64,000 bases of DNA from Escherichia phage vB_EcoM-Ro121c4YLVW: the sequence record NC_052654.1; one strand, given 5' to 3'. The notes under the pieces were generated by a model. The model was not told the DNA's origin, did no database searches, and was given only the letters and a program-made list of their open reading frames with translations. Below, piece after piece: positions 4,429 through 22,900 of this stretch; within the stretch, counting starts at the first letter, position 1; every line of letters starts with the position of its first letter. The translations under genes were made by a program, and so were the position numbers.

Positions 4429-4475
4429 TATCACATGAAGCGGGGAATAGTTCCCCGCAAAGAGAGGAGAAAAGA

Positions 4476-5447: not shown

Positions 5448-5453
5448 TAGATG

Positions 5454-5478
5454 AGCCTCCTTCGGGAGGCTATTTTAT
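5454..5478 (+). terminator. rho-independent terminator after the TerC gene
   Basis: Hairpin AGCCTCC-TTCG-GGAGGCT followed by ATTTTAT. Confidence 0.7.
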
Positions 5479-5489
5479 AGGAGAGACTT

Positions 5490-6461: not shown

Positions 6462-6475
6462 TAAGGAGAAAAACA

Positions 6476-7069: not shown

Positions 7070-7072
7070 GTT

Positions 7073-7663
7073 ATGTATACCGAGAGAGACTTGCAACTCT
7101 TGTGGTGGGAAGTGATGCAGGAAATAAAAGAAGATTTTCCTGTTTACTACAACATGTTACGTGAAGCAGGATATAAAGCTTGTGTTAGAAACAAAGTGAA
7201 TAACTCTTTCGGTTGGTGCAACTACCGAGATAAAATTGTTGTTGTAAATTGGCACTTGCATAAGAACTCTACAAGAGATATGATCGTGGATACAATGAAG
7301 CACGAAATTGCTCATGCTATTGATGGTTGTATGGGTAAGTTTAGTAGACACGGTGCTCATTGGCAAAAACTGGCAGCAGAGTTAGGGGCTAATCCTAAAG
7401 CCACTTCCAAAGAGCCGTTGAACCACGAATATAAATATGTTCTTGTTCTGGTAGATAGGTTTGCGACAAGATGTGTTAGAGGTTATAATCGTAAACCTAA
7501 TCGCATGTACCCAGGTAAGCAACCTAATATGTGGTTGAAATCAGATAAAGAAGGGACCGAAGGAAAATTATGGTTGTATAAATGGGACGATTGGGTTAAA
7601 GTAGCTAAAGAGTACGGTGTTTCACCATATATAAGAGATGCAGAAGAGGAGAATGAAGAATGA
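7073..7663 (+). CDS. SprT-like zinc metallopeptidase domain protein
   Basis: HExxH motif in MIVDTMKHEIAHAIDGCMGKFSRHGAHW, as in SprT/Spartan-type proteins. Confidence 0.55.
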   Translation: MYTERDLQLLWWEVMQEIKEDFPVYYNMLREAGYKACVRNKVNNSFGWCNYRDKIVVVNWHLHKNSTRDMIVDTMKHEIAHAIDGCMGKFSRHGAHWQKLAAELGANPKATSKEPLNHEYKYVLVLVDRFATRCVRGYNRKPNRMYPGKQPNMWLKSDKEGTEGKLWLYKWDDWVKVAKEYGVSPYIRDAEEENEE

Positions 7664-8772
7664 CAAGTCCATTTTTAAAAGCAGCTACTGGCGGTCAGAA
7701 GAAGCCTGAAATGAGCGTATTTGCTGCAACAACAGATGCAAGTAAATCTGTATTCGCTCCAAGCGTGTTAGATGCCAGTCCTGTTTATGCACCAGCGGCA
7801 CCGCAAGAAGTTCCAGTTTTGCCTTCTATGACCCGACAAGAGATCGAAGAGATTGGGGCAGAGGCAGGAACAACCTTGCGTTCCTTGAATGCCGAGGTAT
7901 TAAAACATCAACGTAGTAATCAAGGCGATCAGATGAGTGAACGACTCACAGCTTTGATTAAACAGGCAAAACAACTTGATCCAAACTCTATTAAACAAAG
8001 CAAGGGTATTACTAAACTCATTAAAAAAGTTATGGGTATGAAAGAAGATCTGTTTGGGGAGTTTGATAATGTTAATAACCGTATTGAAGAGTTGGTAAAA
8101 AACCTTCAAATGGATATTCGCAAAGAAGAAGATTCCTTGGTATATCTTGAAAAGCTACATCAAGCTATTGGACAATATGCTGCAAGTTTGAACCGAGATA
8201 TGCAGCTTCTAACAGCAACCTATGAAAAAGAAGAACAAGCTTTGGCTGCTCTTCCAGAAGATGCAGTAGAACAGCGACAAGTGATCCGAGATACTTTGGA
8301 TCTTCTGGAGATTCGTATTGCAGATTTAAAAGCATTGCGCCTACTGTGTGTCCAAATGGGACCGCGTGTACAAGGTATGCAAAAAGTTTCTGCAAGCTTA
8401 ATGCGATCTGCGCGTAACATAGTAAATAATGTTATTCCTGCTTACTCTGCTAACTTCTCAATGTATATCGAGAGCTTACGTCAAATGAAAGCAGCAGAGA
8501 CGCAGAATAACGTTCTTGATGAATTTAACCTGGCAATTAAACTGGGTAGCGATCTTGCCACACAGAATCAGATAGAAGCAGCAGCACTGGCTAACCGTCA
8601 AGTGTTGGATATTGAAACTCTGCGTCACGATCAGGAAAACTTGGTTAAGATGTTGGAAGAAACTAACCGCATCAATACGGAAGCCCGTGCTGCTCGTGTT
8701 GATTATATTAATGAAGTTCAATCTTTGGAAGACGGGATGGTAGCTGCTGTGAAACGAGGGCTTGGTAAATGA
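7660..8772 (+). CDS. alpha-helical coiled-coil protein; possibly TelA-like (unverified)
   Basis: ATG overlaps the SprT stop (ATGA). 370 aa, Ala/Gln/Leu/Glu-rich helical sequence with a disordered N-terminus. TelA-like call rests only on size, composition and Ter-gene context. Confidence 0.6.
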   Translation: MTSPFLKAATGGQKKPEMSVFAATTDASKSVFAPSVLDASPVYAPAAPQEVPVLPSMTRQEIEEIGAEAGTTLRSLNAEVLKHQRSNQGDQMSERLTALIKQAKQLDPNSIKQSKGITKLIKKVMGMKEDLFGEFDNVNNRIEELVKNLQMDIRKEEDSLVYLEKLHQAIGQYAASLNRDMQLLTATYEKEEQALAALPEDAVEQRQVIRDTLDLLEIRIADLKALRLLCVQMGPRVQGMQKVSASLMRSARNIVNNVIPAYSANFSMYIESLRQMKAAETQNNVLDEFNLAIKLGSDLATQNQIEAAALANRQVLDIETLRHDQENLVKMLEETNRINTEARAARVDYINEVQSLEDGMVAAVKRGLGK

Positions 8773-8966
8773 GAATCCGTATCTATATAATTGATGAGGA
8801 CATTGGTGTCCGTTATGATGACGAAAAACGATTCGCACCAATGGGAGGCATATATCCCCCAAGTGTTCTAGCAGTTTGTCGTGATTGTTATATTTATGAA
8901 GGTTGTCGTAACTTCCGTAAATTCCAACTCCTTGCAGATATTGACTTCAATGAGGAGGAGGAGTAA
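8769..8966 (+). CDS. hypothetical small protein
   Basis: ATG overlaps the previous stop; acidic C-terminus (NEEEE). Confidence 0.35.
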   Translation: MRIRIYIIDEDIGVRYDDEKRFAPMGGIYPPSVLAVCRDCYIYEGCRNFRKFQLLADIDFNEEEE

Positions 8967-9139
8967 TGAAAATATTACGAGTGAATATTGAAACTGCTTG
9001 GTGTGGATGCAATGAGGTTGTGGATATCGAAATTGAAGATGATATGTCTCAAGAGGATATAGAAGATCTTGCCCACGAAACCTTTCAGGACTATTGTAAT
9101 TACGGGTTTCATATTTTAGAGGAGGAAGAAGATGTTTAA
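8966..9139 (+). CDS. hypothetical small acidic protein (57 aa, not in ORF track)
   Basis: ATG preceded by GAGGAGGAGGAG; hand translation MKILRVNIETAWCGCNEVVDIEIEDD...ILEEEEDV. Confidence 0.4.
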   Translation: MKILRVNIETAWCGCNEVVDIEIEDDMSQEDIEDLAHETFQDYCNYGFHILEEEEDV

Positions 9140-9335
9140 CTACGATAACGATCCTAATATTATCCAGTTAACCCGACAAGAACTGATCACAATCATTGAA
9201 GATGCTTTTATTGATGGTTGGAATACACAAGATAATGACTGGGGTGGACCCGAAGCTTTTCTGGAACATCATAAAGCTTATGGAGAATTTTGTGAAACCA
9301 CTGTAGCTCTTGATAATCTGAAGGAGGGTTTGTAA
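9132..9335 (+). CDS. hypothetical small protein
   Basis: ATG with GAGGAGG RBS. Confidence 0.45.
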   Translation: MFNYDNDPNIIQLTRQELITIIEDAFIDGWNTQDNDWGGPEAFLEHHKAYGEFCETTVALDNLKEGL

Positions 9336-9898
9336 TGGGTTGTTTTAGTTTTTTGTGCAAAGAATCGGGCAAAGCTGCCCTTTCTACTTCTTTCGACGGA
9401 TCACCTTGCTACCTCTTTCTTTTGAAAGACGGTGTTGTTATTGAAGAGATGTATGGCAACTATGATAGTTATGGTTGTGTTTTCTCTGGAAAAGAGGATG
9501 AAAATGGCGTTCGTGAACGGTTCGAATGGGCTATGGATTGGGGTAAGGTTTGTGATTTAATGCATTCCTCAAATCCAAGGGACGGTATTGCTATGGTGCT
9601 GGAAGAGTACTTTACAGGTGAAATCCCTACAGAACAATCTGACGGAGATCCTAATCAAGGTTGGGGTGATGGTGAAGAAGATCCAGATTGTTTTTTCAGC
9701 ACAGAAAAGAATAAGTTTAAACGTGTTGACAACCCTTATCACAAAGTGCATAATACTCTCATTGAAACAGAAGATGACAAGATGGAAATTGAAGAAGATG
9801 ATCCTCTTGTAACACTTCCTATAAGTGAGTTACAAAAGATCACTAAGGAAGCTTACGATTTGGGCTTCAAAATTGGTAGAGGAGGTATGCGTGTTTAG
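9335..9898 (+). CDS. hypothetical protein
   Basis: ATG with AAGGAGGG RBS; acidic, no recognisable motif. Confidence 0.55.
   Translation: MGCFSFLCKESGKAALSTSFDGSPCYLFLLKDGVVIEEMYGNYDSYGCVFSGKEDENGVRERFEWAMDWGKVCDLMHSSNPRDGIAMVLEEYFTGEIPTEQSDGDPNQGWGDGEEDPDCFFSTEKNKFKRVDNPYHKVHNTLIETEDDKMEIEEDDPLVTLPISELQKITKEAYDLGFKIGRGGMRV
9726..9754 (+). promoter_or_regulatory. sigma70-like promoter candidate (TTGACA, 17 nt, CATAAT)
   Basis: Located inside the 3' end of the preceding ORF, about 140 nt upstream of the small-protein/vWA gene pair. Confidence 0.4.
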
Positions 9899-10169
9899 AT
9901 TCAATATTCAAGAAGAAAAAAGTCAGGATTTACCTATTGCTTTCGAAGATCTTGACGTAGGGGCCACATTCATGTATTATGATGCCTATGAAGACGCAGG
10001 GTTGGATACCTACCGTAACTTGGTGTTCATTAAAAATTCCACAAACAGTGCGATTTGTATTAATGGATCACTAGCACAACGAGGCTATACTCATTGCATC
10101 CCACCAGATACAAATATGGTGGAAGTAGATTTAGAAGTTACCAATATTACACTTAAGAAGGAGAAATAA
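9891..10169 (+). CDS. small conserved protein, paralog A (pairs with 11191..11460)
   Basis: GTG start after GGAGG. Shares the pattern ...DLDVG(A/D)TF.Y...(F/Y)(E/D)(D/E)(A/N)GLD...LEV.LTVT.ITLKK with the ORF at 11191. Confidence 0.55.
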   Translation: MFRFNIQEEKSQDLPIAFEDLDVGATFMYYDAYEDAGLDTYRNLVFIKNSTNSAICINGSLAQRGYTHCIPPDTNMVEVDLEVTNITLKKEK

Positions 10170-10170
10170 T

Positions 10171-10965
10171 ATGTCCGAGAAAATCAGCCTGAAAAAACGT
10201 CAAGAAAACCTTGCTTTCTCTCTGAAAAAGAATAAGAACCTGAATGAAGGTAAGATTGTTCTTCGTGTAGCATGTGCTCTAGATATTTCTGGTAGTATGC
10301 ATGGTCTATATTCTAGTGGGGTAGTGAGTGATTTTGTAGGTAAACTGCTTCCTTTTGGTATGCTGTTCGACGATAATCAACAAATTGATATGTGGGCCTT
10401 CAATACGAGTTCCCAAGAGCTTACTCCAGCAACAGCAGACGTTTACGATGACTATGTTGGTAAATGTATGCGTAATGTTCGTATCGGAGGTGGAACAAAT
10501 TACGCCCCTGTAATGGCAGATATCTACGATGAGTATTTTGGCACTGTTACCAAATATATTACCACTAAACAAGTGGTACAAGAGGAGGCTCCAAAGAAAG
10601 GCTTCTTTAATCGTCTGCTTGGTAAAACTGAAACAGTGTCTGTAGAGCGTGAAAAAGTTGTAGCTGTATCTGAACCAGGTGCTGACGTTACCCCTGGTGT
10701 TGTATTCTTCCAGACGGATGGTGAGAATGGTGATCCTAGTGCTGTTCGTCGTCTTATTGAAGAGAATAAGAATAAACCTATTTATTGGTTCATGGTTGGC
10801 GTTGGTAATGAGAAGTTTGGCTTCCTGAAAGAACTGGCAAATGCTTATGATAATGTTGGTTTTATTGGCATTAAAGATTTAGACTTGACAGATTCAGAGC
10901 TTTATGACAAACTCTTATCTGAAGAGTTCGGAGAGTGGGTTGTTAAAGTAGGTGCTAAAAAATGA
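10171..10965 (+). CDS. vWA domain protein, TerF/TerY-like
   Basis: MIDAS motif DISGSM, then GGTNY and TDGENGD; N-terminus MSEKISLKK resembles the TerD-family N-terminal motif. Confidence 0.8.
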   Translation: MSEKISLKKRQENLAFSLKKNKNLNEGKIVLRVACALDISGSMHGLYSSGVVSDFVGKLLPFGMLFDDNQQIDMWAFNTSSQELTPATADVYDDYVGKCMRNVRIGGGTNYAPVMADIYDEYFGTVTKYITTKQVVQEEAPKKGFFNRLLGKTETVSVEREKVVAVSEPGADVTPGVVFFQTDGENGDPSAVRRLIEENKNKPIYWFMVGVGNEKFGFLKELANAYDNVGFIGIKDLDLTDSELYDKLLSEEFGEWVVKVGAKK

Positions 10966-11210
10966 TCGACGAGCTTGCCTCTCAAGTCGTAGAAAATTAT
11001 TGGCGCGAGAGAGAAGCTTTCATTATGCGCAGTCTCAAAGAGTATTTCATTGGGACTGTGCGAATGGAAGATATTGTAAGTAGAGTAGAGATTCATGTAT
11101 GGCCCGATTATGAAGAATGGGTTGACAAAGAAAATGAAAATGCTATAATTCTTCGTATATACAAACCGGAGATAACATTAGGAGGAAGAAGTGTTAAACT
11201 TCGAAATTGA
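10962..11210 (+). CDS. hypothetical small protein
   Basis: ATG overlaps the vWA stop; contains an internal promoter-like site. Confidence 0.4.
   Translation: MIDELASQVVENYWREREAFIMRSLKEYFIGTVRMEDIVSRVEIHVWPDYEEWVDKENENAIILRIYKPEITLGGRSVKLRN
11122..11149 (+). promoter_or_regulatory. sigma70-like promoter candidate (TTGACA, 16 nt, TATAAT)
   Basis: Consensus -35 and perfect -10 hexamer, upstream of the paralog B and TerD genes. Confidence 0.5.
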
Positions 11211-11460
11211 TGAGCAAAAAGTAAATAAACGATGCCTTACCATTAAAGATTTGGATGTAGGAGATACTTTCGTCTATGAAAATGCATTTGACGAAAATGG
11301 TTTAGACCTTAGTGAAATCATTGTTTATTTAAAAGTAGATGATGGGGAAAATGATTATTCTGCTGTAGAACTAAACCATCATGCACAATTAGTATCAATC
11401 CAAAACACATCTAAGCTTTTGGAAGTAGAATTGACTGTAACTGGTATTACACTTAAATAA
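11191..11460 (+). CDS. small conserved protein, paralog B (pairs with 9891..10169)
   Basis: GTG start after GGAGGAAG; sequence parallels paralog A. Confidence 0.55.
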   Translation: MLNFEIDEQKVNKRCLTIKDLDVGDTFVYENAFDENGLDLSEIIVYLKVDDGENDYSAVELNHHAQLVSIQNTSKLLEVELTVTGITLK

Positions 11461-11475
11461 TAGAGGAGACAAAAG

Positions 11476-12078
11476 ATGACTGATAAAATTTCCCTGAAAA
11501 AAGGCTCTAGCGAAAAAATTTCCCTGAAGAAAGTTGCTCCGGCTCTGAAAGAACTGCGCCTGGAATTCTCTTGGAAATCTGATTCTAAACTGGATCTGGA
11601 TGTAAGTGCACTGGTTTGTCGTCATAATGCCGCTGGCAATCCTGAAATGCTGTCCGCACGTCATCTGGTTTGCTATGCTAACAAGTTTGATCCTGAACGT
11701 TCTACCTTCGCTGGTGACGATGTTCGTGATGGGACTGGCAGCATGGAGCAGATTGATATTACTCTGGCTAAAATCTCTCCTGATGCACAAGAGATTGCCT
11801 TTGTTCTGACCATTGATGATGATACAGGTCTGAAACGTTTTGGTCATGCTTCTGAAGGTATGCTTAAAATCTTCGACTCCGAGCGTAATGTGGAAATTCT
11901 GGATTTTGACTTCCTGGCTCCTGAAGTAGCTGGCAACACAATCTGCCACGTGGCTTCCCTGGTTCGTGAAGATGGAGAATGGAAGCTGAAAGCATATGGT
12001 GTAGGTAAAGCTGGTCTGGATATTTGCGATGTGGTGATGGCCTTCGGTGGTAAAAAAGAATGGTATGAATGTCCATAA
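11476..12078 (+). CDS. terD: TerD-domain protein
   Basis: Matches recalled TerD signatures: N-terminal ISLKK repeats, DLDVSALVC, GDDVRDGTGSMEQIDITL, IAFVLTIDDD, DGEWKLKAYGVGKAGL. Codon usage is strongly E. coli-optimal (CTG, CGT, GGT). Confidence 0.9.
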   Translation: MTDKISLKKGSSEKISLKKVAPALKELRLEFSWKSDSKLDLDVSALVCRHNAAGNPEMLSARHLVCYANKFDPERSTFAGDDVRDGTGSMEQIDITLAKISPDAQEIAFVLTIDDDTGLKRFGHASEGMLKIFDSERNVEILDFDFLAPEVAGNTICHVASLVREDGEWKLKAYGVGKAGLDICDVVMAFGGKKEWYECP

Positions 12079-12177: not shown

Positions 12178-12699
12178 TTGCTGATAAAAAACTTTGTAAC
12201 AGTTGCGTTACTATCCTTAACTGCTTTTACATTTACACCTGTTGTGGCGAAAGCCGAAGCTGCAAACGTAAAAACCGCTAAAGTAGTTCACAAATGTACA
12301 AAGCAATATAATGATAAAATTCTATTAGCTTGTGCAATTTACGCAGAAGGTCGCGGTCTGGGTAAAAAAGGAATGAATGCCGTTGGGAATGTGGTAATCA
12401 ACAGAAGAAATGATGCCTACTTCCCTAACACAGTCAAGGGAGTCTTGTTCCAGAAAGGGCAATTCTCATATGCGAAAACTTTTAACGTGACAGAGAAAGA
12501 TAAGTGGCAGGAAGCAAAAGCAATAGCGGAGCGTTTACTTTATTTAGAGAAACATTTTCCTGAATTGCGGTCTGTTTTAGATGTTACTAAAGGTGCTCTA
12601 TACTTCAAGAAACGGAATATAAGGACACACTGGGAGCGTGATATGCGTCTTGTTTATCGAGATAAAGTGCATGGTTTCTATCTACCAAAGGGGAGTTAA
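12178..12699 (+). CDS. cell-wall hydrolase (SleB/Hydrolase_2-like) with N-terminal signal peptide; candidate secreted endolysin
   Basis: TTG start after AAAGGAGG; signal peptide with AKA-EA cleavage-like site; CAIYAEGRGLG...GNVVINRR...FQKGQFSYAKTF resembles SleB-type hydrolases. Confidence 0.7.
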   Translation: MLIKNFVTVALLSLTAFTFTPVVAKAEAANVKTAKVVHKCTKQYNDKILLACAIYAEGRGLGKKGMNAVGNVVINRRNDAYFPNTVKGVLFQKGQFSYAKTFNVTEKDKWQEAKAIAERLLYLEKHFPELRSVLDVTKGALYFKKRNIRTHWERDMRLVYRDKVHGFYLPKGS

Positions 12700-13400: not shown

Positions 13401-13964
13401 ATGATTTATTATATTACTCCCTATCTGACAGGAAATATCGGCAAGGCTATCAATGAAGCTATTGCCGTTCTTCCAGATGATAGTTGGGTGTGCTTAAGAG
13501 ATACCGATACAATGTTCCTCCTGCCTGATCAACCATCTATGCTTGAAGAGCTTGTTATGTCAAACCCGCCTTTTGATGTAATAGGTGCAACTTGTAACAG
13601 GTTAGGTAGTGGTTATCAGCTTTTCTCTAACCAAATTAACGATGATCCAGATATTCTAAACCATATAGAATATGCTAAGATTGCAAGAGAATATCATAAA
13701 GTGAGTGTTGAAGAAGTTCCTTTCGGAACACCTCTGGCAGGTTTCTTTTTGCTTTTTAGAAAATCATTGTGGAATGAAATTCCTTTCGAAGAAAAATCTA
13801 TCCAATTCGACCTAATTTTCTCTCGCACTTTACATGAAAAAGGAAAGAGGTTAGGATTGATGCGGGGAATGTATCTGTTTCACATTTACAGATTAGGTCA
13901 AACAAATCCTCAACGGTCTATACATCATTTATTACACTGTCACGATCACAGTAAAACTATCTAG
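13401..13964 (+). CDS. putative GT-A fold glycosyltransferase
   Basis: N-terminal beta-strand YYITPY followed by D-x-D-like LRDTDTMF; weak. Confidence 0.45.
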   Translation: MIYYITPYLTGNIGKAINEAIAVLPDDSWVCLRDTDTMFLLPDQPSMLEELVMSNPPFDVIGATCNRLGSGYQLFSNQINDDPDILNHIEYAKIAREYHKVSVEEVPFGTPLAGFFLLFRKSLWNEIPFEEKSIQFDLIFSRTLHEKGKRLGLMRGMYLFHIYRLGQTNPQRSIHHLLHCHDHSKTI

Positions 13965-13972
13965 GAGAGAAA

Positions 13973-14656
13973 ATGGAAAATATTAAAATCGGAGTGGGTG
14001 TTATCACTGTAGGTGTCCGTCCACTTAAAGACTATCTTGTAACAGATCCACATGCAGATTTTCGAGTATTCAACGATCCAGATCGTAAAGGTGTAGCTTA
14101 CGCCAGGAATGAACTTATGCACCAGTTTTATGAAGAAGGTTATGATTATTGGTTTATTTTTGACGACGATTGCTACCCAATCATGGAGGGATGGGAAACA
14201 TATTTTGTAGATCAAGCTGTCTCTGGAAGATGGGATTTCTTTGGTATGCCGGAGTATTTCAAAGATAAAGTTGTTGGGAGTAAAGGAGAAGTTATTCTCT
14301 GGGAACTTGCAATGTGTCAATTTGCAATGTATTCTCGTGCCGTTGTTGAGAAGATGGGTTATTTCCGCCCTTACACTCACGGCTATGGTTTTGAAGATGC
14401 TGAATGGGTACACCGTTTGAAAGCTGCTGGTTTGAATCAGGGTATTCAGGCAATACCTTGTCCACTTCGTATCATGGCTTATATCCACCCAGACGATGTT
14501 TTTGGAAACAATCCTATGCCTTTTGCTAATCTGACAAAAGAAGAGAAAGAAGCTGCTATTGGCATTAACTGGGAAGAATATAAAGCGTCTTTAGAAGATA
14601 TTAAAAATGGGAAAATCCGAATTTCTTATGAGGAGGCACTGGCACATGTCAAATAA
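13973..14656 (+). CDS. glycosyltransferase, GT-A fold (family 2-like)
   Basis: DxD motif FIFDDDCYP and downstream GFEDAEW; RBS AGGAGAG. Confidence 0.65.
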   Translation: MENIKIGVGVITVGVRPLKDYLVTDPHADFRVFNDPDRKGVAYARNELMHQFYEEGYDYWFIFDDDCYPIMEGWETYFVDQAVSGRWDFFGMPEYFKDKVVGSKGEVILWELAMCQFAMYSRAVVEKMGYFRPYTHGYGFEDAEWVHRLKAAGLNQGIQAIPCPLRIMAYIHPDDVFGNNPMPFANLTKEEKEAAIGINWEEYKASLEDIKNGKIRISYEEALAHVK

Positions 14657-15593
14657 AAAATGGACTAAACTGAAAATTGATGCAAAACCTCACAGTGGTT
14701 GTGATTATCATCGTATTGTTATACCATTTAACAACAATAATTTTCAGCCTAAGAAAGATGTTGTCGTGTTTAACCGTATTCATTCTAAAGGTGCAGAATA
14801 CGTTTTATCTTTGAAACGTCAAGGTGTTAAGATTGTTGTAGATTTAGATGATTTCTACCAACTTAATCCAGAACATTATTTAGCAAGTCTATACGAGTCA
14901 AACACTCATGCTATTGTAGCTATGGTTAAGCTTGCTGATGTGGTTATTGTGACTACGGAATATTTAGCATATAAGATCCGTCACTTAAATAGGAATGTTG
15001 TTGTGATCCGAAATGCACTTCCTTTTGATAGCGGACAATTCACTTTGTCAAATGATCGTTCATCCGGTACCCCTGTTGTATGGGCTGGCGGTGCTAGTCA
15101 CGAACCAGACTTACGACTAGTCTCTAATACTTTCGATGATGAACTTCTTACTATTGCGGGATATGAAGCATCACAAAGCATCACGGGACAAGAGTGGATT
15201 AAGATTCGCAGAAATTTACCAAATGCCAAATATAAAGCCGCCGTAAAAGATTTAGATAATTACATGAGTGTTTACGAAAGTCATGCTATTGCTATAGCTC
15301 CTTTGGTAGATAATGATTTTAATAATTGTAAAAGTAATCTCAAAATCCTGGAAGCTGGAGCAAAAGGTATTCCGATTGTTTGTTCTAAGGTATTACCTTA
15401 TTTTAACCCTGTAGATGCTCGCGCTGTTGCTTACGCAGAGAATAAAGCAGAATGGCATTACGAAATTGTTAAGCTTCTTCGCAATCCAAACTATCGGGAA
15501 GATCGTGGCTTGTTCTTGGCTGAACATGTTCGAACACATTATAATCTGGCAGATGCAAACGAGTTGCGACGCCAGGTTATTGAAAGTTTGTAG
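14646..15593 (+). CDS. glycosyltransferase, GT-B fold (GT4-like), paralog 1
   Basis: C-terminal KSNLKILEAGAKGIPIVCS resembles the GT-B E-x7-E region; ATG 14646 follows AGGAGG; paralogous to the next gene. Confidence 0.65.
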   Translation: MSNKKWTKLKIDAKPHSGCDYHRIVIPFNNNNFQPKKDVVVFNRIHSKGAEYVLSLKRQGVKIVVDLDDFYQLNPEHYLASLYESNTHAIVAMVKLADVVIVTTEYLAYKIRHLNRNVVVIRNALPFDSGQFTLSNDRSSGTPVVWAGGASHEPDLRLVSNTFDDELLTIAGYEASQSITGQEWIKIRRNLPNAKYKAAVKDLDNYMSVYESHAIAIAPLVDNDFNNCKSNLKILEAGAKGIPIVCSKVLPYFNPVDARAVAYAENKAEWHYEIVKLLRNPNYREDRGLFLAEHVRTHYNLADANELRRQVIESL

Positions 15594-15600
15594 GTGAAGT

Positions 15601-16545
15601 ATGGGACAAATAATTCTTGACAATCGTAACGGAATCAATTATAGTGTCTGCGATTTCCATAGGGTAGTGCTGCCTTACTCAAGGCAGTTCTCTTCACAAC
15701 CTAAACACAACGTTTTCGTTTTTAACGGAGTGCCAACAAAAGGTAAAGAGGGCTTTTTAGCCCTTAAAAACCTGGGCTTTAAAATGGTTATGGATTTGGA
15801 TGACTCTTTAGTTATTCCAAAAGGACACATGTTAGAAGGTATTTTTGAATCAGGTATTCGTGAACATTTAAAATGGTTTTTAGAGCACAGTGATCTTGTT
15901 ACAACTACGACACCTGCCTTGCAAGTTGAACTTTCACAATACAATGATAATGTGCACATAATCCCTAATGGACTTCCTTATGATGAAGGTCAATTTGTGT
16001 TGACCCGTGATCGCTACTCCAAAACTCCATTAGTCTGGGCTGGAAGTGAAACACATAAACAAGATTTGGCTATCTTGCCCGATTTTGGTAAAGATCTTAC
16101 AATATGTGGTTTTCGTAGGGATTCTGAAGTTTTAAGTAGTCGTGAATGGTCTGTAATTAGAGAAAATGTAGCACCAACTAGTGTTTATGAAGGTGTAAGA
16201 CCATATGCCAACTACATGGAATCTTACGATGGTCATCAAATCAGTCTTGCACCATTGGTCGATAACGTGTTTAATAATGCAAAAAGCAATCTTAAAATTC
16301 TTGAGGCAGGTGCTAAGGGTTTACCTTTAATCTGCTCTCCTCGTGAGAATTATCATACGCAAGAGTTTAAAGATTTGTTATTCTTTGCTGAAACACTTTC
16401 CGAGTGGAAAGATATTACGGAATACTTATTAAGTGCTCCCGATGTTTGCATGGAGAAAGGATTAGCATTAGCTAAGTATGTCAGGACTCATTATCACATT
16501 GATGTGTTGAATGAGCGTCGTAGACTTTTATTTGAGGAGCTATAA
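15601..16545 (+). CDS. glycosyltransferase, GT-B fold (GT4-like), paralog 2
   Basis: KSNLKILEAGAKGLPLICS and overall co-linear similarity to 14646..15593. Confidence 0.65.
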   Translation: MGQIILDNRNGINYSVCDFHRVVLPYSRQFSSQPKHNVFVFNGVPTKGKEGFLALKNLGFKMVMDLDDSLVIPKGHMLEGIFESGIREHLKWFLEHSDLVTTTTPALQVELSQYNDNVHIIPNGLPYDEGQFVLTRDRYSKTPLVWAGSETHKQDLAILPDFGKDLTICGFRRDSEVLSSREWSVIRENVAPTSVYEGVRPYANYMESYDGHQISLAPLVDNVFNNAKSNLKILEAGAKGLPLICSPRENYHTQEFKDLLFFAETLSEWKDITEYLLSAPDVCMEKGLALAKYVRTHYHIDVLNERRRLLFEEL

Positions 16546-16823
16546 TGATTAACACTTTTGATTTTGAATACACCACTCGTAACGGGAAAGCCTTGGTTGT
16601 GGAGGTGGATTACTATTATGAAGAACCTAATCCACTTTCTCGTGAAAGCGATTGGGATTACCACGGAGGGCTTTTAATTGACGGTATTCGTTTTTATGAA
16701 GGATCTACAGAAGTTTTTGAAAAAGATTTAAATGTAACTGTAGCAGAAATTGCTTTCCAATTTAGAAAGCACATGGAAGAACTAGAAGCAGAATATATGA
16801 TGGAGACTAACGAACCATTTTAA
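16545..16823 (+). CDS. hypothetical protein
   Basis: ATG overlaps the previous stop; RBS GAGGAG. Confidence 0.45.
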   Translation: MINTFDFEYTTRNGKALVVEVDYYYEEPNPLSRESDWDYHGGLLIDGIRFYEGSTEVFEKDLNVTVAEIAFQFRKHMEELEAEYMMETNEPF

Positions 16824-16835: not shown

Positions 16836-18614
16836 GTGTCGCACATTATAACTAAATATGGATTTGATGTTGATCTTAGCAAGGAAGGGCATACAGGTTG
16901 TCCGCGCTGCATGAAAAATGGCAAGGATCGCTCTCGTAATAACCTGATGGTTTATGGATTAGATTCTAATGGAGAGCATAAAGGTGCTAAGTGCTTTGCG
17001 TGTGAATACACTATTCCTAGCGTAGAATGGTTACGAGAAAATGGTGAAGTTTTAGAAGAAGAGGAGGAGATTGTGGGTTCGGAATTTAATAAACAGATTC
17101 ATCGTAAAATTGTTCAAGAAACATCAACCAACCCACGTGGTTATCGAGGCATTAAAGAAAAAGTTTCATCTTTCTATGGTGTTCGTTATGAATACCGTCA
17201 GGAAGGGGATCAGATGGTAGTAGAAAGTTGTTTATATCCGACTACCATCGGTAAAGAATTGGTTGGTTTTAAGCGTCGTATTCATCCTAAAGATTTCAGT
17301 AAACCTATTGGTCAAGTAGGTAAAGATGTAGATCTTTTTGGACAAATTCGTTTTGCAGACCGTTCTCATACTGTGGTAATTACAGGTGGTGAACACGATG
17401 CTCTGGCAGCTTATCAAATGCTGTCTGAAAACTTGGACAACAAATATGAACTTCCAGCAGTAGTTAGTGGCACAACTGGTGAAACCAGTATGTATAAACA
17501 AGTTCAGGCACAATATCCTTTCTTTGAAAAATTTAAGAAGATTATTGTTTGCATGGATAATGACAAAGCAGGTAATGAGGCATTTGAAAATATTGTTAAG
17601 GTGCTACCTCGTAACAAAGTCTACCGTATGCAGATGGATCTTAAGGATGCCAATCAGTATCTGGAAGAAGGTCGTGCAAAGGATTTCGTAAAGGCTTTTT
17701 GGAGTGCTCGTCTATACACCCCAGCAGGTGTTTATGCTTCTAATGTCTTGTATGAAGCTGCATTAGAATGCTTGGAATCCAAGATGATTACCTTGCCTCC
17801 TTTTATGCGTGTTGCTGCAAATATGCTGGGTGGTGGTTTAGTAGAGGAAGAGATTACAGTCATCCTAGCAAAGACCAGTATCGGTAAAACTTTGATGGTG
17901 AACGAGATCACCAAACATATTATTGTTGCGCACCCAGAACATACCCTAGGTATTCTGTCATTGGAAGCAACTTATAAGAAATATTCTCGTAACCTGTTGT
18001 CCTCGTTCCTGCATATTCCTCTACATAGGAAAACACCGGAAGAGAAATTTCAAATCTTGGAAGAGAATAAAGAAAAAATCCTAGATTTTTACGAAAGAGA
18101 AGATGGATCACCACGTTTTTATGTGTGTGATGATCGTGGAGCAGATGTGGAGTCTATCAAAGAAAAAGTTTTGGAGATGATCATCTATTTTGGAGTAACA
18201 ATTCTTGTTATCGACCCTTATTCTGATTTGCTTTCTGGTATGGATGTTCAAGCCCAAGAAGAGTTAGCAACATGGTTGAAGCGTATCATGAAAGAGTATG
18301 CTATAACTATTATCGTCATCTCACACGTTAAGAAATCGGCTAATGGTGGCAATGAACACTTAACAGAGGACGATGCAATGGGTAGTAGTTTCTTGGCTAA
18401 AGGTGCTGGTATTACCTTGGCTTTGGAACGAGATAAAGCCGCTGAAGACCCTGTAGAACGCAATACGACTCATTGCTTTATCCTAAAAAACCGTGAGTTC
18501 TCGGAGACTGGTCCGGCAGGGCAGTTTTACTATGACATTAGAACTGCAACTCTGCATGACAAAGAGCAGTATTTCAACAACCCTGCTAATTTGCCTACGG
18601 ATAGCAACTATTAA
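16836..18614 (+). CDS. bifunctional DNA primase-helicase (T7 gp4-like)
   Basis: N-terminal Zn ribbon CPRC...CFAC; TOPRIM-like VVITGGEHDA...CMDNDKAGNEA; helicase Walker A AKTSIGKT and Walker B-like VLVIDPYSD. Confidence 0.9.
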   Translation: MSHIITKYGFDVDLSKEGHTGCPRCMKNGKDRSRNNLMVYGLDSNGEHKGAKCFACEYTIPSVEWLRENGEVLEEEEEIVGSEFNKQIHRKIVQETSTNPRGYRGIKEKVSSFYGVRYEYRQEGDQMVVESCLYPTTIGKELVGFKRRIHPKDFSKPIGQVGKDVDLFGQIRFADRSHTVVITGGEHDALAAYQMLSENLDNKYELPAVVSGTTGETSMYKQVQAQYPFFEKFKKIIVCMDNDKAGNEAFENIVKVLPRNKVYRMQMDLKDANQYLEEGRAKDFVKAFWSARLYTPAGVYASNVLYEAALECLESKMITLPPFMRVAANMLGGGLVEEEITVILAKTSIGKTLMVNEITKHIIVAHPEHTLGILSLEATYKKYSRNLLSSFLHIPLHRKTPEEKFQILEENKEKILDFYEREDGSPRFYVCDDRGADVESIKEKVLEMIIYFGVTILVIDPYSDLLSGMDVQAQEELATWLKRIMKEYAITIIVISHVKKSANGGNEHLTEDDAMGSSFLAKGAGITLALERDKAAEDPVERNTTHCFILKNREFSETGPAGQFYYDIRTATLHDKEQYFNNPANLPTDSNY

Positions 18615-19147: not shown

Positions 19148-19942
19148 TTGAGCAAGTTGAACACACTTGATCAATATTACACTAACCCCGCTTATGCGGG
19201 GTTCTTATGTGATAAGATCAAAGAAATTTTTGGAGAGGAAGCTAACTACGTAGAACCATCTGCGGGAGAAGGAGCTTTCTCTTCTTGTTTTAAAAACATA
19301 ACTTCTTTTGATATTGACCCTAAGTTTGAAGATTGTATTGAGGCAGATTTTTTAGCTCAATCTGTTGAGTCTGTTGGTAGCGTAACTGCTTTTGTCGGTA
19401 ATCCTCCATTTGGAAAAAATGCTAGTCTTGCCATTAAATTCTTTAACCATTGTGCTGAAATGCTGGATAACGAAGGTGGTATTTGTTTTATCTTGCCTCG
19501 CACATTTCAAAAAATCTTTTTTGCACACAAACTAAATCCCCATATGCATCTTCTTTACGAAGAAGAATGTCCAAAAGGATCTTTTATTCTTCATGGAGAA
19601 CCTTGGGATGTTCCTTGTGTATTCCAGGTATGGATTAAACGCAACGAGAAGCGTTCTCCCGTTGTTTTAGGAGAGAATCGACTATTCGTATTAGGTAACA
19701 GTAAAGACTACGATATAGCTGTTAGGAGAGCGGGAGCAAGTGCAGGTAGAGTGTTATCAGAAGAAGATTCTTTATCTGAAGCATCTACCTATTTTTTAAA
19801 AGCCTTGACTTCTGATCTTAAAACGCGTATCATTGAGGCTTACCCGTTACTTAAAGCTGAAGCTAGTAAAACTGCGGGAGTAAGAAGTTTAAGTTTAAAA
19901 GAACTTCAGTGGGTTCTGGAGAACATTAGAAAGGAGGAATAG
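19148..19942 (+). CDS. N6-adenine DNA methyltransferase (orphan; gamma-class motif order)
   Basis: Motif I EPSAGEGAF precedes motif IV GNPPFG; TTG start after AAGGAGG. No restriction endonuclease gene is adjacent. Confidence 0.75.
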   Translation: MSKLNTLDQYYTNPAYAGFLCDKIKEIFGEEANYVEPSAGEGAFSSCFKNITSFDIDPKFEDCIEADFLAQSVESVGSVTAFVGNPPFGKNASLAIKFFNHCAEMLDNEGGICFILPRTFQKIFFAHKLNPHMHLLYEEECPKGSFILHGEPWDVPCVFQVWIKRNEKRSPVVLGENRLFVLGNSKDYDIAVRRAGASAGRVLSEEDSLSEASTYFLKALTSDLKTRIIEAYPLLKAEASKTAGVRSLSLKELQWVLENIRKEE

Positions 19943-22900
19943 TGAGTAAGTTTACATGGGATATTGAAGCAAACGGATTGTTGAATAATGACACTATTGA
20001 TTATTTAGCTAGTCCTTATCGTCTCAAAGACACATTTCAAATGCACTGTATTGTCTTAGAGAACCATGAAACAGGAGAAATAGTAGCTTTCCACGATGGC
20101 CCTAAATACATCTTTGATGGGCGTCCTTATGAAGAGTCAGATGGTAAATACACATATGTTCTTAAAGAGTATGTGGCGCAAGATTACACACATTTTCAAC
20201 TAAAAGATTTCCCAGACTTTATTAATCATGAAGGTTATTTTAAAGATAAGCCTGAATATCTGGTTGAAATGGCTGTGGCTCACAACGGTATCAACTACGA
20301 CTGGTTGGCTACAAAACTGTTTTATGGATTAGATTACAGTGTTAAATATAATACGTGGGGCAAAAATAAGGTAAAACTTATTGACTCCTTGATTTTGAGT
20401 AAAGTGTTAAACCCAGATCGAAAGATTGAGGGCAAATCAGGACATAGCTTGGCAGCACTTTCTCGAAAAGCAGGTGGTGATGTAAAAATAGATTTCCGTA
20501 AAGAGATTCCAGAAGAAGATCGATTTAAGACTTTTGCTGCGGATATGCTTTATTACTGTATCTATGACAACAAAGCCAATACGAGCGTATATAATTACCT
20601 TATGGAAGAATGGGGCGATTATGATAAATGGGAAGGTCCATTTGAACTTGAACAACGTGTAGCAGACATTATTACACGCCAGGAACACCGTGGGTTTGCT
20701 TTTAACATGAAGCAAGCAGAAGAGAACCTTGCTTTTTTGGATGCAGAAATGGAGCGTCTTCGTTTACTCGTTGAGCCTATTTTGCCACCTAAACCAGCAA
20801 CAAAAGGTTATCTTAAGGCTTTTATTCCACCTAAGTTGCAAATTAAAAAGAACTTAGAGCCAACTAACCATATGATCAATTTTGCTAAGAAACATGATGG
20901 TCATTTGGAAGAGAGGGATGGCGATTGGTGGTTAGTTATGTTGGGGAAAGAGTGGAAACTGCCAGTTGCAGCAGATGAGCCTCTATGTGATCCTAACATC
21001 CCTGCAACATTGAACGATACAACCCATATTAAAAACTGGCTCGTAGGATTAGGTTGGGTACCGTCTGAATATAAAGATAAAGACTTGACGCTTAAATCTG
21101 GCACCAAAATTAAAAAGAGCGAGGAAGAACTTCAGAAAGGTATTAGAGCTTACGTTGAGCAAACTCTATCTTCTAATTTTTGTCAGGATCGTTGTGATCA
21201 TCTGGAGTGCACACCGGAAACTTTGGAAAGGAAGATTCAAGAGCGTATAGCAAAAGGTAAAGGTCGCGGTCTTAAAGTATTGACTAACCCATGTTTTACC
21301 AAAGGTCAGGAAAAAGAAATTTGTCCTAACCTGCAAGCTTTGGGTGAGAAATTTCCTTATGCTACACAGATTGTAGAATACTTAACGTATAAGCATCGTA
21401 GGAACTCTATTTTAGGTGGCGGTGCTGATTGGGAAGAAGATGAAGAAGATCAAGAATACGATAAAGGTTTCTTAGCCGCAGTAAGGGCGGATGGGCGTAT
21501 TCCTACACCAGCCGCTACATGTGATGCTGCAACCTCTCGTATGAAACATAGATCTGTAGCTAATATTCCTCGTGTCACATCTTTGTTTGGATGGGAGATG
21601 CGTAACTTGTTTGGTGTAGAAGTTCCTAAATACTTCCAGATCGGTTATGACTTCGACTCTTTGGAAGCAAAGATTGAGTCGCATTACTGTGTGCCGATGG
21701 ATGCTCAAGCTTTGACTCGTAAAGGTTGGGTAGGATATCACGACCTGAAGGAAGGGGATGAGATTTTAGGGTACAATGCTGAAACAGGTATGAAAGAATG
21801 GACTAAAGTAAAAGGTAAGGTCTTCTATAAAAATAGTAAGACGTTTGAGATTAAAGGGAAATCACACACTTACCGTGCAACAGCAGATCACCGTTGGTAT
21901 GTTAATACCCGTAGTAAAGGGAATACTTATGTGCCTAAAGTCAGAACAACTGCCGAGCTTTGCACAGGAGATAATATTATTTGTAATGCTCCATTTAACA
22001 TGGAACAAGATCAGGTAAATAGTTTAACTTCTGTTCAACAAGGTAAATGGGATGTTCCGTGGGTAGAGCGTGTAGTTAATATGTCTCATGCCGAGCGTGT
22101 AGCTTTCTTGGAAGGTTTCTTGATTGCAGATGGTTACTGGCATGAACATAAACAAAAACCTGTTTGGCGTTGGGCGCAGAACCCAGGTGAACTTTTTGAA
22201 GCAGCTTTAACTGCCTCGTACCTGGTGCATGGAGGCAATATCTCTGTAGCTTTCAATACAAAAGAGCAGAAAGTAAAAGTGGCAACATTGACTAACCGCT
22301 CTCACATTCCTGTTCAAAGTTTGACTATTGAAGAGTGGGGTGTAGAGGATGTTTGGTGTCCACAAACAGAACTTGGTACGTGGGTCATGCGTCAGAAAGA
22401 CTGCATTACCATCACAGGAAACTGTTGGCGCTACGAACCGGAGCCTCATGAATACTGTAACGCTCTCTTGTTAGAGAAGCCTAACGATGTTCATACCATG
22501 ATGGCAAAACGTATTACAGATACTATTGGGCGTAAATTTGAACGTAGTCCGGCGAAATCTGTTAAATACGGGATCACTTATGGTGCACAAGCAGACAAGG
22601 TTGCTAAAACAATTGGTAGCGATAAATACACAGGGCAACTGGTGTTCGATGCTTTCTGGGAAGCTGCATTCCCACTGGCGCGTCTTAAAGAACGTTTAAA
22701 CGATTTCTGGGTTAAGACTGGTAAACAGTATGTTTTGGGTATTGACGGTCGTAAGGTTCCTACTCGTTCTGCTCACGCGATTCTTAACTCTCTGTTCCAA
22801 AGTGGTGGGGTTATCTGTGCTAAACGTGCAATGGTTATTTATGACGACATGATCGAAGAAGAAGGGCTAAGTGTTGACTTCTTTAAAGATGACTGGAAGA

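What the first reader, a model, noticed from the sequence alone, without database searches (positions are those of the whole stretch)
13401..16545. Cluster of four glycosyltransferase genes directly upstream of the replication genes
Two GT-A-type genes (one with a clear DDD motif) and two paralogous GT-B-type genes lie in a row, followed by primase-helicase, methyltransferase and DNA polymerase. In virulent phages such clusters may glycosylate modified DNA bases as anti-restriction, or modify the virion or host surface polysaccharide. No base-hydroxymethylase gene is visible in this window, so the target is open.
Basis: inference. Interest (0 to 1): 0.55.

Follow-up and report, generated by a model that had tools for sequence, protein, structure and literature searches.

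The report
Four-glycosyltransferase cassette in a coliphage
The four glycosyltransferase genes are real and already annotated in this well-known group of E. coli phages; their target has never been shown, but it is probably not the phage DNA and may be the virus particle, which would matter for phage therapy.

Summary
Window 13401-16545 holds four tightly packed + strand genes: two GT-A enzymes (GT1, DxD = D34-T-D36; GT2, D64-D65-D66) and two paralogous GT-B/GT4-like enzymes (GT3 and GT4, 41.6% identical).

The window is a Phapecoctavirus (phAPEC8-like, Stephanstirmvirinae), 99.7% identical to phage vB_EcoM_3A1_SA_NWU. The same cassette is annotated as four glycosyltransferases in RefSeq and in phi92 (gp166-gp163), so the genes are not new. 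Their function is untested.

DNA glycosylation is disfavoured:
- No hydroxymethylase or TET is annotated in the genome; only ThyX is.
- Phapecoctavirus DNA is cut by HincII.
- Cassette-bearing phi92-like BASEL phages are reported as exceptionally sensitive to restriction-modification (RM) systems.
- The GT-B model resembles GT4 enzymes, not the T4 DNA glucosyltransferases.

In unrelated small phages the GT1-GT2-GT3 module sits in late or head operons. Twice it lies between the major capsid and head-tail adaptor genes. It also lies between lysis genes and terminase, and between Q and the lysis genes in a lambdoid phage. Sugar-tailoring enzymes often lie next to it. GT2 also resembles a glycosyltransferase in a mycobacteriophage virion-glycosylation operon.

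Best reading (about 0.4): a soluble pathway that builds an oligosaccharide on virion proteins, possibly using the phage's own dTDP-rhamnose. The main caveat is that the phi92 cryo-EM study reports no glycans.

The parts
13401..13964 (+). GT1: small (187 aa) soluble GT-A glycosyltransferase, DxD = D34-T-D36
   Evidence: ORF. It matches phrog_14179 'glycosyltransferase' at 8.5e-113 but has no Pfam or NCBIfam hit. The AF2 model has pLDDT 89.6, and its Foldseek PDB hits are GT-A enzymes such as the LH3 GT domain, GalNAc-T2 and RmlT. Invariant residues include D34, D36, E131, D137 and H161. No transmembrane segment was found.
13973..14656 (+). GT2: 227-aa GT-A glycosyltransferase with an invariant DDD (64-66) motif and a YGFED motif
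   Evidence: ORF. It matches phrog_2456 at 6.4e-79. Its own Pfam hits are weak: TAGT, Glyco_transf_7C and Glycos_transf_2. The profile search found 956 representatives; of 79 sampled, 40 hit Glycos_transf_2 and 32 hit Glyco_transf_7C. It is 25% identical (E = 5e-14) to the N-terminal GT-A domain of mycobacteriophage MilleniumForce gp102.
14646..15593 (+). GT3: 315-aa GT-B (GT4-like) glycosyltransferase; ortholog of the single GT-B found in three-gene versions of the cassette
   Evidence: ORF (the longest ORF starts at 14607). It matches phrog_7162 at 6.8e-149, and Pfam Glyco_trans_1_4 and Glyco_trans_1_2 just below their cut-offs. It is 41.6% identical to GT4. It is 46-54% identical to the single GT-B of the three-gene and lambdoid two-gene versions (L010, L011, L028-L030, L041, L044), whereas GT4 is only 36-41% identical to them. 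The exception is L004, where both are about 37-40%.
15601..16545 (+). GT4: 314-aa GT-B (GT4-like) glycosyltransferase, a paralog of GT3
   Evidence: ORF. It matches phrog_7162 at 1.1e-144, and Pfam Glyco_trans_1_2 at 23.8 bits against a cut-off of 25. The AF2 model has pLDDT 92.0 and pTM 0.90. Its Foldseek PDB matches are PglA, TreT, GlgM, SdgB, BshA, MshA and GtfC. In BFVD it matches phage and giant-virus group-1 glycosyltransferases.

Best explanation
The four genes encode soluble cytoplasmic enzymes that act as one glycan-assembly pathway. Two GT-A and two GT4-like GT-B transferases add sugars one after another to build a short oligosaccharide on a non-DNA acceptor.

The most likely acceptor is one or more proteins of the assembling virion (head, tail or fibres). 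The donors would be host nucleotide sugars, probably together with the dTDP-L-rhamnose made by the phage's own rmlBACD operon, which lies outside the window. The result would be a glycan coat on the particle, as shown for mycobacteriophages.

Shown here: the genes, their fold classes, their conservation as a mobile module, and their gene neighbourhoods. Inferred: the acceptor, the sugars, and any biological effect.
For: 1. The enzymes are real and soluble. The fold models, motifs and PHROG matches agree, and there are no transmembrane segments.

2. The module travels as a unit. GT1-GT2-GT3 in the same order occurs in a Serratia HK97-like prophage between the lysis genes and the terminase (L011).

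3. In IMG/VR siphovirus L030 the order is scaffold, major head protein, GT1, GT2, GT3, head-tail adaptor.

4. In L033, which has an unrelated major capsid protein (MCP) family, three glycosyltransferases again lie between the MCP and the adaptor.

5. The GT2+GT3 pair lies between terminase and portal in L004. In a lambdoid phage it lies between the Q/ant region and the lysis genes, at the start of the late operon (L041).

6. Distant relatives sit next to sugar-tailoring genes. These are a Methyltransf_24 enzyme, a hexapeptide acyltransferase, a further Pfam family-2 (GT-A) glycosyltransferase, NAD-dependent epimerase/dehydratases and a DegT aminotransferase. All lie beside portal, MCP or terminase genes. 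Such enzymes are typical of glycoprotein or polysaccharide glycans.

7. GT2 is homologous (E = 5e-14, shared FxFDDDCYPI motif) to the GT-A domain of MilleniumForce gp102. That gene lies in the same operon as gp105, which is 85% identical to Che8 gp110. Che8 gp110 is described in the literature as essential for capsid glycosylation.

8. Gene content of the cassette varies among relatives: 4, 3 or 2 glycosyltransferases. This is what glycan-structure diversification looks like.

9. A near-identical genome carries rmlB-A-C-D.
Against: - There is no direct evidence of glycosylated virions.
- The phi92 cryo-EM study (head at 3-3.9 A; MCP, cement, sheath and tube modelled) does not mention glycans or extra density. 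Flexible glycans and the unresolved fibres could have been missed.
- The window's MCP, tube and other structural proteins have no Ser/Thr-rich tails.
- The structural proteins of the window phage show no BLAST similarity to anything in the other phage loci that carry the module. No conserved acceptor protein therefore travels with it.
- None of the four proteins is significantly similar to Che8 gp108, gp109 or gp110 themselves.
- In this phage the cassette sits in the replication-gene operon, not the structural one.
- Several distant GT1 homologs lie next to DNA methyltransferases just upstream of the packaging genes. That position would also suit a late DNA-modifying function.
Confidence: 0.4

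Rival explanations
1. DNA glycosylation. The enzymes would add sugars, perhaps rhamnose, to modified bases in phage DNA to block restriction or other nucleases, as T-even phages do.
For: - The cassette lies in the replication and nucleotide-metabolism operon.
- GT2 has weak local matches to Pfam TAGT (E = 1.3e-3) and to the PHROG family of the T2/T6 beta-glucosyl-HMC-alpha-glucosyltransferase (4e-6, residues 31-72 only).
- 12 of 79 sampled GT2 relatives hit TAGT.
- Olsen et al. 2020 suggested rhamnosylation of hydroxymethylated nucleotides for these phages.
- Some distant GT1 homologs abut DNA methyltransferases.
Against: - No dCMP/dUMP hydroxymethylase or TET/JBP enzyme is annotated anywhere in a near-identical phage's genome; only ThyX is.
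- DNA of Phapecoctavirus isolates, including ESCO13 (98.9% identical here), was cut by HincII in a screen where only three Tevenvirinae resisted.
- The phi92-like BASEL phages PaulScherrer, EmilieFrey and JohannJBalmer carry the full cassette. This group is reported as exceptionally susceptible to RM systems.
- The GT-B model matches GT4 enzymes. No hit named as a T4 alpha- or beta-glucosyltransferase appears in the top 50 of PDB or BFVD.
- The module occurs in lambdoid and HK97-like temperate phages of about 40-57 kb.
Confidence: 0.12
2. Host envelope remodelling. The enzymes would act at the cytoplasmic face on the LPS core or on lipid-linked O-antigen, ECA, colanic acid or NGR intermediates. 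This would alter receptors, either to exclude superinfecting phages or to stop progeny sticking to debris.
For: - GT4-like GT-B and family-2/8-like GT-A enzymes are the classes that build the LPS core and lipid-linked repeat units.
- PglA, PimA and TarM are among the structural matches.
- BFVD neighbours carry automatic 'RfaG' names.
- These phages use surface glycans as receptors and carry several depolymerase spikes.
Against: - A virulent phage with a short latent period can replace little of the surface LPS.
- In the temperate phages the module sits in late operons, which are silent in lysogens. That is the opposite of Gtr-type lysogenic conversion.
- There are no membrane segments and no GtrA/GtrC-like partners.
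- A position between the capsid and adaptor genes is hard to explain this way.
Confidence: 0.15
3. Other acceptor. The enzymes would glycosylate a small molecule or a non-structural protein. One candidate is the nucleoside-like product predicted for the neighbouring Ter-associated PRTase/HAD module. Another is a host factor or a defence component.
For: - A Ter module lies directly upstream in the same orientation: HAD, PRTase_3, Macro, TerC, TelA, vWA-TerF and TerD.
- The same synteny is kept in distant relatives L010 and L044.
- Structural neighbours of GT4 include small-molecule glycosyltransferases such as BshA, MshA, TreT and a tetrahydrobiopterin glucosyltransferase.
- They also include protein O-glycosyltransferases acting on non-virion proteins, such as SdgB and GtfC.
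Against: - The cassette is separated from the Ter genes by the endolysin gene and three small ORFs.
- It occurs without any Ter genes in the loci fetched from the Serratia prophage, the lambdoid phage and the siphoviruses.
- Four transferases suggest an oligosaccharide rather than a single tag.
Confidence: 0.15

Closest known systems
phi92 gp166-gp163 and the 'glycosyltransferase (x4)' cassette annotated in Phapecoctavirus and Justusliebigvirus RefSeq records
   Same: The same four genes lie in the same order at the same genomic position. They are 95-99.7% identical in nucleotide sequence within Phapecoctavirus, and 66-76% identical in amino-acid sequence to phi92. The phi92 record already notes a GT fold, a ppGalNAc-T2 fold, a GT-B fold and a TreT fold.
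   Different: Nothing structural differs; this window is simply another member. No functional study was found in the searched literature.
Actinobacteriophage virion-glycosylation operons (Che8 gp108-110, Corndog, Myrna; Freeman et al. 2023, as cited in PMC12363180 and PMC11256854)
   Same: Both are operons of several phage-encoded soluble glycosyltransferases, sometimes with a methyltransferase, carried by both temperate and lytic phages. GT2 is homologous to the GT-A domain of MilleniumForce gp102, which shares an operon with an 85% identical copy of Che8 gp110. Relatives of the window cassette sit inside head-gene modules.
   Different: There is no significant similarity to Che8 gp108, gp109 or gp110 themselves. 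The host is Gram-negative. Here two GT4-like GT-B enzymes are present, plus a phage dTDP-rhamnose pathway. Glycosylated virions have not been shown for this group, and the phi92 cryo-EM paper does not report glycans.
T-even phage DNA glucosyltransferases (T4 alpha-GT and beta-GT; T2/T6 beta-glucosyl-HMC-alpha-GT)
   Same: These are also phage-encoded soluble GT-B and GT-A enzymes placed among DNA-metabolism genes. GT2 shares a roughly 40-residue DxD-region match with phrog_842.
   Different: There is no hydroxymethylase, no full-length similarity, and no named match in the structure searches. DNA of close relatives is restriction-sensitive.
TET-associated glycosyltransferases (Pfam TAGT, PF20691)
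   Same: They belong to the same GT-A superfamily. GT2 scores 19.2 bits, and 12 of 79 sampled relatives pass E <= 1e-3.
   Different: The score is below the gathering score of 27.5. No TET/JBP dioxygenase was seen in the window or in the genome annotation. The adjacent methyltransferase is an N6-adenine type, not a C5-cytosine type.
Giant-virus capsid and fibril glycosylation machinery (chloroviruses, mimiviruses)
   Same: Both combine a virus-encoded nucleotide-sugar pathway (rhamnose) with several cytoplasmic glycosyltransferases. Giant-virus group-1 glycosyltransferases are among the structural neighbours of GT4. The comparison of function rests on established knowledge, as reviewed in PMC9614988, which was listed but not read.
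   Different: The viruses and hosts are unrelated, the similarity is at fold level only, and no glycan has been shown here.

Membership tests
GT-A fold glycosyltransferases (Pfam Glycos_transf_2 / Glyco_transf_7C clan) | Single Rossmann-like GT-A fold | tested here: met
   GT1: the AF2 model (pLDDT 89.6) has GT-A enzymes as its top 50 Foldseek PDB hits, with probability 0.92-1.00 and TM about 0.45-0.53. GT2 was not modelled. Its relatives link it to Glycos_transf_2 (40 of 79) and Glyco_transf_7C (32 of 79).
GT-A fold glycosyltransferases (Pfam Glycos_transf_2 / Glyco_transf_7C clan) | DxD metal/nucleotide-sugar binding motif conserved across the family | tested here: met
   GT1 residues D34 and D36 are invariant in 24 sequences. 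GT2 residues D64, D65 and D66 are invariant in 15 sequences.
GT-A fold glycosyltransferases (Pfam Glycos_transf_2 / Glyco_transf_7C clan) | The protein itself scores above the Pfam gathering threshold | tested here: not met
   GT1 has no Pfam hit. GT2 scores 13-19 bits against cut-offs of 23-27.5. Both are divergent members, recognisable only through profiles or structure.
GT-B fold, GT4-like (Pfam Glycos_transf_1 / Glyco_trans_1_2 / Glyco_trans_1_4) | Two Rossmann-like domains with a GT4-type C-terminal nucleotide-sugar domain | tested here: met
   The GT4 model (pLDDT 92.0) gives 224 PDB matches with E <= 1e-3. The top matches are PglA, TreT, GlgM, SdgB, BshA and MshA. GT3 is included through its 41.6% identity to GT4.
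GT-B fold, GT4-like (Pfam Glycos_transf_1 / Glyco_trans_1_2 / Glyco_trans_1_4) | Score above the Pfam gathering threshold | tested here: inconclusive
   GT4 scores 23.8 bits against 25 for Glyco_trans_1_2. GT3 scores 22.6 bits against 27 for Glyco_trans_1_4. More distant relatives pass (precomputed Pfam annotations).
T-even type DNA glucosyltransferases | Full-length homology to alpha-GT, beta-GT or beta-alpha-GT | tested here: not met
   The PHROG scan gave only a 42-residue local match of GT2 to phrog_842, and nothing for GT1, GT3 or GT4. No named T4 glucosyltransferase appears in the top 50 of the PDB or BFVD fold searches. One unnamed 351-aa BFVD entry at rank 30 could not be identified.
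T-even type DNA glucosyltransferases | Co-encoded pathway that makes a hydroxymethylated base (dCMP/dUMP hydroxymethylase, or TET/JBP) | tested here: not met
   None is present in the window ORFs examined, and none is annotated in the whole 150-kb genome of OR062524.1. That genome encodes ThyX and RNRs only. This was not an exhaustive HMM scan of every ORF.
T-even type DNA glucosyltransferases | Virion DNA refractory to restriction enzymes and RM systems | not testable with these tools
   Literature only. Only three Tevenvirinae among 42 isolates resisted HincII in the study that isolated five Phapecoctavirus phages. The phi92-like BASEL phages that carry the cassette are 'exceptionally susceptible' to RM. 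Both observations point to this feature not being met.
TET-associated glycosyltransferase (TAGT, PF20691) | Pfam gathering score, plus a neighbouring TET/JBP dioxygenase and C5-cytosine methyltransferase | tested here: not met
   GT2 scores 19.2 bits against 27.5. No TET/JBP enzyme is present, and the neighbouring methyltransferase has an N6-adenine NPPF motif.
Actinobacteriophage virion-glycosylation operon (Che8 type) | Homology to the glycosyltransferases shown to be needed for capsid glycosylation | tested here: inconclusive
   There is no significant match to Che8 gp108, gp109 or gp110. GT2 does match MilleniumForce gp102 (E = 5e-14), which lies in the operon that also holds an 85% identical copy of Che8 gp110.
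Actinobacteriophage virion-glycosylation operon (Che8 type) | Glycans covalently attached to capsid or tail proteins | not testable with these tools
   This needs mass spectrometry of virions. The phi92 cryo-EM paper does not mention glycans.
Gtr-type O-antigen modification (GtrA/GtrB/GtrC) | Membrane-embedded flippase and transferases, expressed from the prophage | tested here: not met
   No hydrophobic segment typical of a membrane helix was found. The highest Kyte-Doolittle 19-residue window is 1.65, in a charged Rossmann-fold segment. In temperate relatives the module lies in late operons.

The most novel reading that the evidence does not exclude
Virions of common therapeutic coliphages (Phapecoctavirus, Justusliebigvirus) and of several lambdoid or HK97-like enterobacterial phages carry a phage-made, possibly rhamnose-containing, oligosaccharide. 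It would be built by a mobile GT1-GT2-GT3(-GT4) module. This would be the first virion glycosylation system in phages of Gram-negative bacteria.
Probability: 0.35. Interest if true: 0.7.

Novelty: new member of a known kind. Interest (0 to 1): 0.42.

Why it matters
Phapecoctavirus and phi92-like phages are isolated again and again for therapy against pathogenic E. coli. If their particles carry a glycan coat, that would affect antibody recognition, clearance, mucus binding and stability, as reported for glycosylated mycobacteriophages. It would also give a portable three- or four-gene module for engineering phage surfaces.

If the enzymes modify DNA instead, it would be a modification that does not protect against classical restriction, which would be unusual in itself. 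Either way, this is a conserved four-enzyme pathway, supported by a phage dTDP-rhamnose operon, that has no assigned target. It can be tested directly with standard mass spectrometry.

Tried and rejected
- Sequence and profile searches of GT1, GT2 and GT4 against PDB sequences gave only chance hits.
- NCBIfam gave nothing useful.
- hhalign of the GT1 family against the GT2 family, and of GT1 and GT2 profiles against Che8 gp108-110, gave no significant match. No direct homology to the characterised Che8 enzymes is therefore claimed.
- A look for Ser/Thr-rich tails on the MCP, cement protein, sheath, tube and portal found none.
- A BLAST test for a shared structural protein between the window and the small module-bearing phages found none.
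- An attempt to correlate rmlC with the number of GT-B genes across IMG/VR contigs failed, because the scan found only close relatives.
- The genome-contig scan with the GT1 profile returned a single metagenome-assembled contig (L047) whose match is 99% identical to GT1.
- Two metagenomic contexts were too short to help.
- The primary papers Freeman et al. 2023 and Schwarzer et al. 2012 are not held. Statements about them rest on papers that cite them and on the phi92 GenBank notes.
- I considered the 92-aa ORF at 16545-16823 as a fifth member of the cassette and rejected it. Its phi92 counterpart is noted as similar to a PVP-SE1 protein. No BLAST-level GT2 homolog turned up in enterobacterial phages outside Stephanstirmvirinae. 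The ORF that follows the cassette in the Serratia prophage also looks unrelated.

Full report
**What is there**

The interval 13401-16545 is filled by four + strand ORFs:
- GT1, 13401-13964, 187 aa.
- GT2, 13973-14656, 227 aa.
- GT3, 14646-15593, 315 aa. The longest ORF starts at 14607.
- GT4, 15601-16545, 314 aa.

The genes are separated by 8 nt, an 11-nt overlap and 7 nt. The GT4 stop overlaps the start of a 92-aa ORF (16545-16823). After that come the primase-helicase (16836-18614), a 143-aa ORF, a methyltransferase with an NPPF motif (19148-19942) and DNA polymerase I (19942-23274). No + strand terminator-like site lies between 11000 and 17716. The cassette is therefore probably transcribed together with its neighbours.

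**Are they glycosyltransferases?**

All four match PHROG families named glycosyltransferase over their full length, with E-values from 6e-79 to 7e-149. Pfam sees them only weakly. GT1 has no hit, and GT2, GT3 and GT4 fall just below the gathering scores. NCBIfam and PDB sequence searches give nothing. Structure and deeper profiles settle the question.

- GT1: the AlphaFold2 model has pLDDT 89.6, and Foldseek finds only GT-A enzymes. These include the LH3 glycosyltransferase domain, ppGalNAc-T2, LARGE1, Listeria RmlT and COLGALT1. D34 and D36 are invariant.
- GT2: the D64-D65-D66 motif is invariant. A profile search of 1.84 billion representatives found 956 relatives. Of 79 sampled, 40 hit Glycos_transf_2, 32 hit Glyco_transf_7C and 12 hit TAGT.
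- GT4: the model has pLDDT 92.0 and is a GT-B fold close to GT4-family enzymes. The best matches are PglA, TreT, GlgM, SdgB, BshA, MshA, GtfC and PimA, with E about 1e-9.
- GT3 and GT4 are 41.6% identical.
- None of the four has a membrane segment.

**Whose genome is it?**

The region is 99.7% identical to Escherichia phage vB_EcoM_3A1_SA_NWU and 95-99% identical to about 60 other Phapecoctavirus records. Many RefSeq records already label these genes 'glycosyltransferase (x4)'. The sister genus Justusliebigvirus has the same four genes in the same place. In phi92 they are gp166-gp163, and the record's notes give fold predictions of a GT fold, ppGalNAc-T2, GT-B and TreT. The cluster is therefore known and annotated. 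I found no functional study.

**Rest of the genome**

A near-identical genome encodes rmlB-A-C-D (the dTDP-L-rhamnose pathway), ThyX, class Ia and class III RNRs and several DNA methyltransferases. No ThyA-like hydroxymethylase or TET/JBP enzyme is annotated.

Olsen et al. 2020 noted the rml pathway in these phages and speculated about rhamnosylation of hydroxymethylated nucleotides. One Phapecoctavirus, ESCO37, lacks rmlA and rmlB but keeps the cassette.

**Is DNA the target?**

Several independent lines argue against it.
- No pathway for a hydroxylated base was found (see above).
- In a screen of 42 coliphages, only three Tevenvirinae resisted HincII. The five Phapecoctavirus isolates were not among them; they include ESCO13, which is 98.9% identical here.
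- Maffei et al. 2021 report that Vequintavirinae and their relatives, including the phi92-like BASEL phages, are 'exceptionally susceptible' to RM systems 'despite a putative dTDP glycosylation machinery'.
- I confirmed that the BASEL phages PaulScherrer, EmilieFrey and JohannJBalmer carry the full cassette.
- The GT-B model matches GT4 enzymes. No named T4 glucosyltransferase is in the top 50 of PDB or BFVD.
- GT2's similarity to TAGT and to the T2/T6 enzyme is confined to the DxD region and falls below the family thresholds.

Partial or unusual DNA modification cannot be excluded without nucleoside mass spectrometry.

**Where else does the module occur?**

This was the most informative analysis.

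- GT1-GT2-GT3, with a single GT-B orthologous to GT3, occurs in the same order in more distant myovirus relatives (L010, L044, L028-L030). It also occurs in a Serratia sp. M24T3 HK97-like prophage, between the lysis genes and the HNH/terminase genes.
- In IMG/VR siphovirus L030 the order is terminase, portal, head morphogenesis, scaffold, major head protein, GT1, GT2, GT3, head-tail adaptor, neck, major tail protein.
- In L033, which has a different MCP family, three glycosyltransferases again lie between the MCP and the adaptor. They are a 443-aa protein matching Pfam Glycos_transf_2, a GT2-like protein and a GT1-like protein.
- The GT2+GT3 pair lies between terminase and portal in L004. In a lambdoid phage it lies between the Q-antiterminator/ant region and the holin-lysozyme genes, at the head of the late operon (L041/L042).
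- More distant GT1 homologs lie just upstream of terminase, portal or MCP genes. They often sit with sugar-tailoring genes: Methyltransf_24, a hexapeptide acyltransferase, a further Pfam family-2 glycosyltransferase, an NAD-dependent epimerase/dehydratase and a DegT aminotransferase. Sometimes they sit with a DNA methyltransferase.
- Gene content varies among close relatives: GT1-GT3-GT4, GT1-GT3, and so on.

**Link to known virion glycosylation**

A tblastn search with GT2 finds 348 mycobacteriophage records. The best characterised example is MilleniumForce gp102. Its N-terminal GT-A domain aligns with GT2 (E = 5e-14), sharing the FxFDDDCYPI motif. It lies in an operon with gp105, which is 85% identical to Che8 gp110. 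Che8 gp110 and Corndog gp38 are described as the essential capsid-glycosylating enzymes. The window proteins are not detectably similar to Che8 gp108, gp109 or gp110 themselves. This is a lead, not proof of membership.

**Interpretation**

The cassette is a mobile, soluble, multi-enzyme glycan-assembly module. In small phages it is expressed with late or head genes.

The best-supported target is the virion. Four transferases would build a short oligosaccharide on one or more structural proteins. In Stephanstirmvirinae the phage's dTDP-rhamnose operon would be a likely donor source. I put this at about 0.4.

Evidence against this reading:
- The 2026 cryo-EM study of phi92 reached 3-3.9 A in the head and modelled the MCP, cement, sheath and tube proteins. 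It mentions no glycans. The fibres were not resolved, and flexible glycans can be missed.
- There are no Ser/Thr-rich tails on the window's structural proteins.
- No shared structural protein accompanies the module.

Rivals are host-envelope remodelling (0.15), another acceptor such as a product of the adjacent Ter-associated PRTase/HAD module or a non-structural protein (0.15), and DNA glycosylation (0.12).

**Verdict**

The feature is a further member of a known and annotated kind, a phage glycosyltransferase cassette, whose function is untested. Interest is moderate. It would be considerably higher if virion glycosylation in coliphages were shown, and standard mass spectrometry can test that directly.

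Noticed in passing
window 21688-22422 (within the DNA polymerase I gene, 19942-23274): The polymerase is 1110 aa, against 865 aa in ESCO13, because of a 245-aa in-frame insertion with 100% identical flanks. The insertion starts with Cys, ends ...TGN, is followed by Cys, and contains a LAGLIDADG-like 'FLEGFLIADGYW' motif. This looks like an intein with a homing endonuclease. It is absent from ESCO13 and, judging from the gene length in the annotation, from the closest relative vB_EcoM_3A1_SA_NWU. Pfam reported only DNA_pol_A.
   Followed up: partly
window 2199-12078: A phage-encoded Ter-type module lies upstream of the cassette: HAD hydrolase (2199-2855), PRTase_3 (2848-3675), Macro domain (3584-4162), TerC (4476-5447), SprT-like (7073-7663), TelA (7660-8772), vWA-TerF-like (10171-10965) and TerD (11476-12078). 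A SleB-like endolysin follows at 12178-12699. A perfect sigma-70 consensus with an extended -10 TG lies at 11122-11149.
   Followed up: partly
OR062524.1 30995-34273 (outside the window; locus L003): A near-identical phage genome carries a complete rmlB-rmlA-rmlC-rmlD operon for dTDP-L-rhamnose, next to class Ia RNR and ThyX. One relative, ESCO37, is reported to lack rmlA and rmlB while keeping the glycosyltransferase cassette.
   Followed up: partly
L030 9013-12592; L033 4452-11164: Two metagenomic siphoviruses with unrelated major capsid protein families both carry glycosyltransferase genes related to GT1/GT2(/GT3) inserted between the major capsid gene and the head-tail adaptor gene.
   Followed up: yes
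L041 9394-10969 (lambdoid phage contig, JGI 3300063406): A GT2+GT3 pair sits where lambdoid phages often carry cargo genes, between the Q antiterminator/ant region and the holin-lysozyme genes. A HicAB toxin-antitoxin pair lies just upstream.
   Followed up: partly
L004 16754-17359: A gene hitting Pfam Nmad5 ('nucleotide modification associated domain 5') lies about 5 kb from the GT3/GT2 pair, inside the structural region of a Sf6/P22-like contig. I did not work out its relevance.
   Followed up: no
search results for the cassette: Several GenBank records named 'Campylobacter phage' (for example B15, A110a, A150) are about 97-99% identical to these coliphage cassettes and have coliphage-like genome sizes. 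This suggests mislabelled hosts or contaminating phages in those submissions.
   Followed up: no
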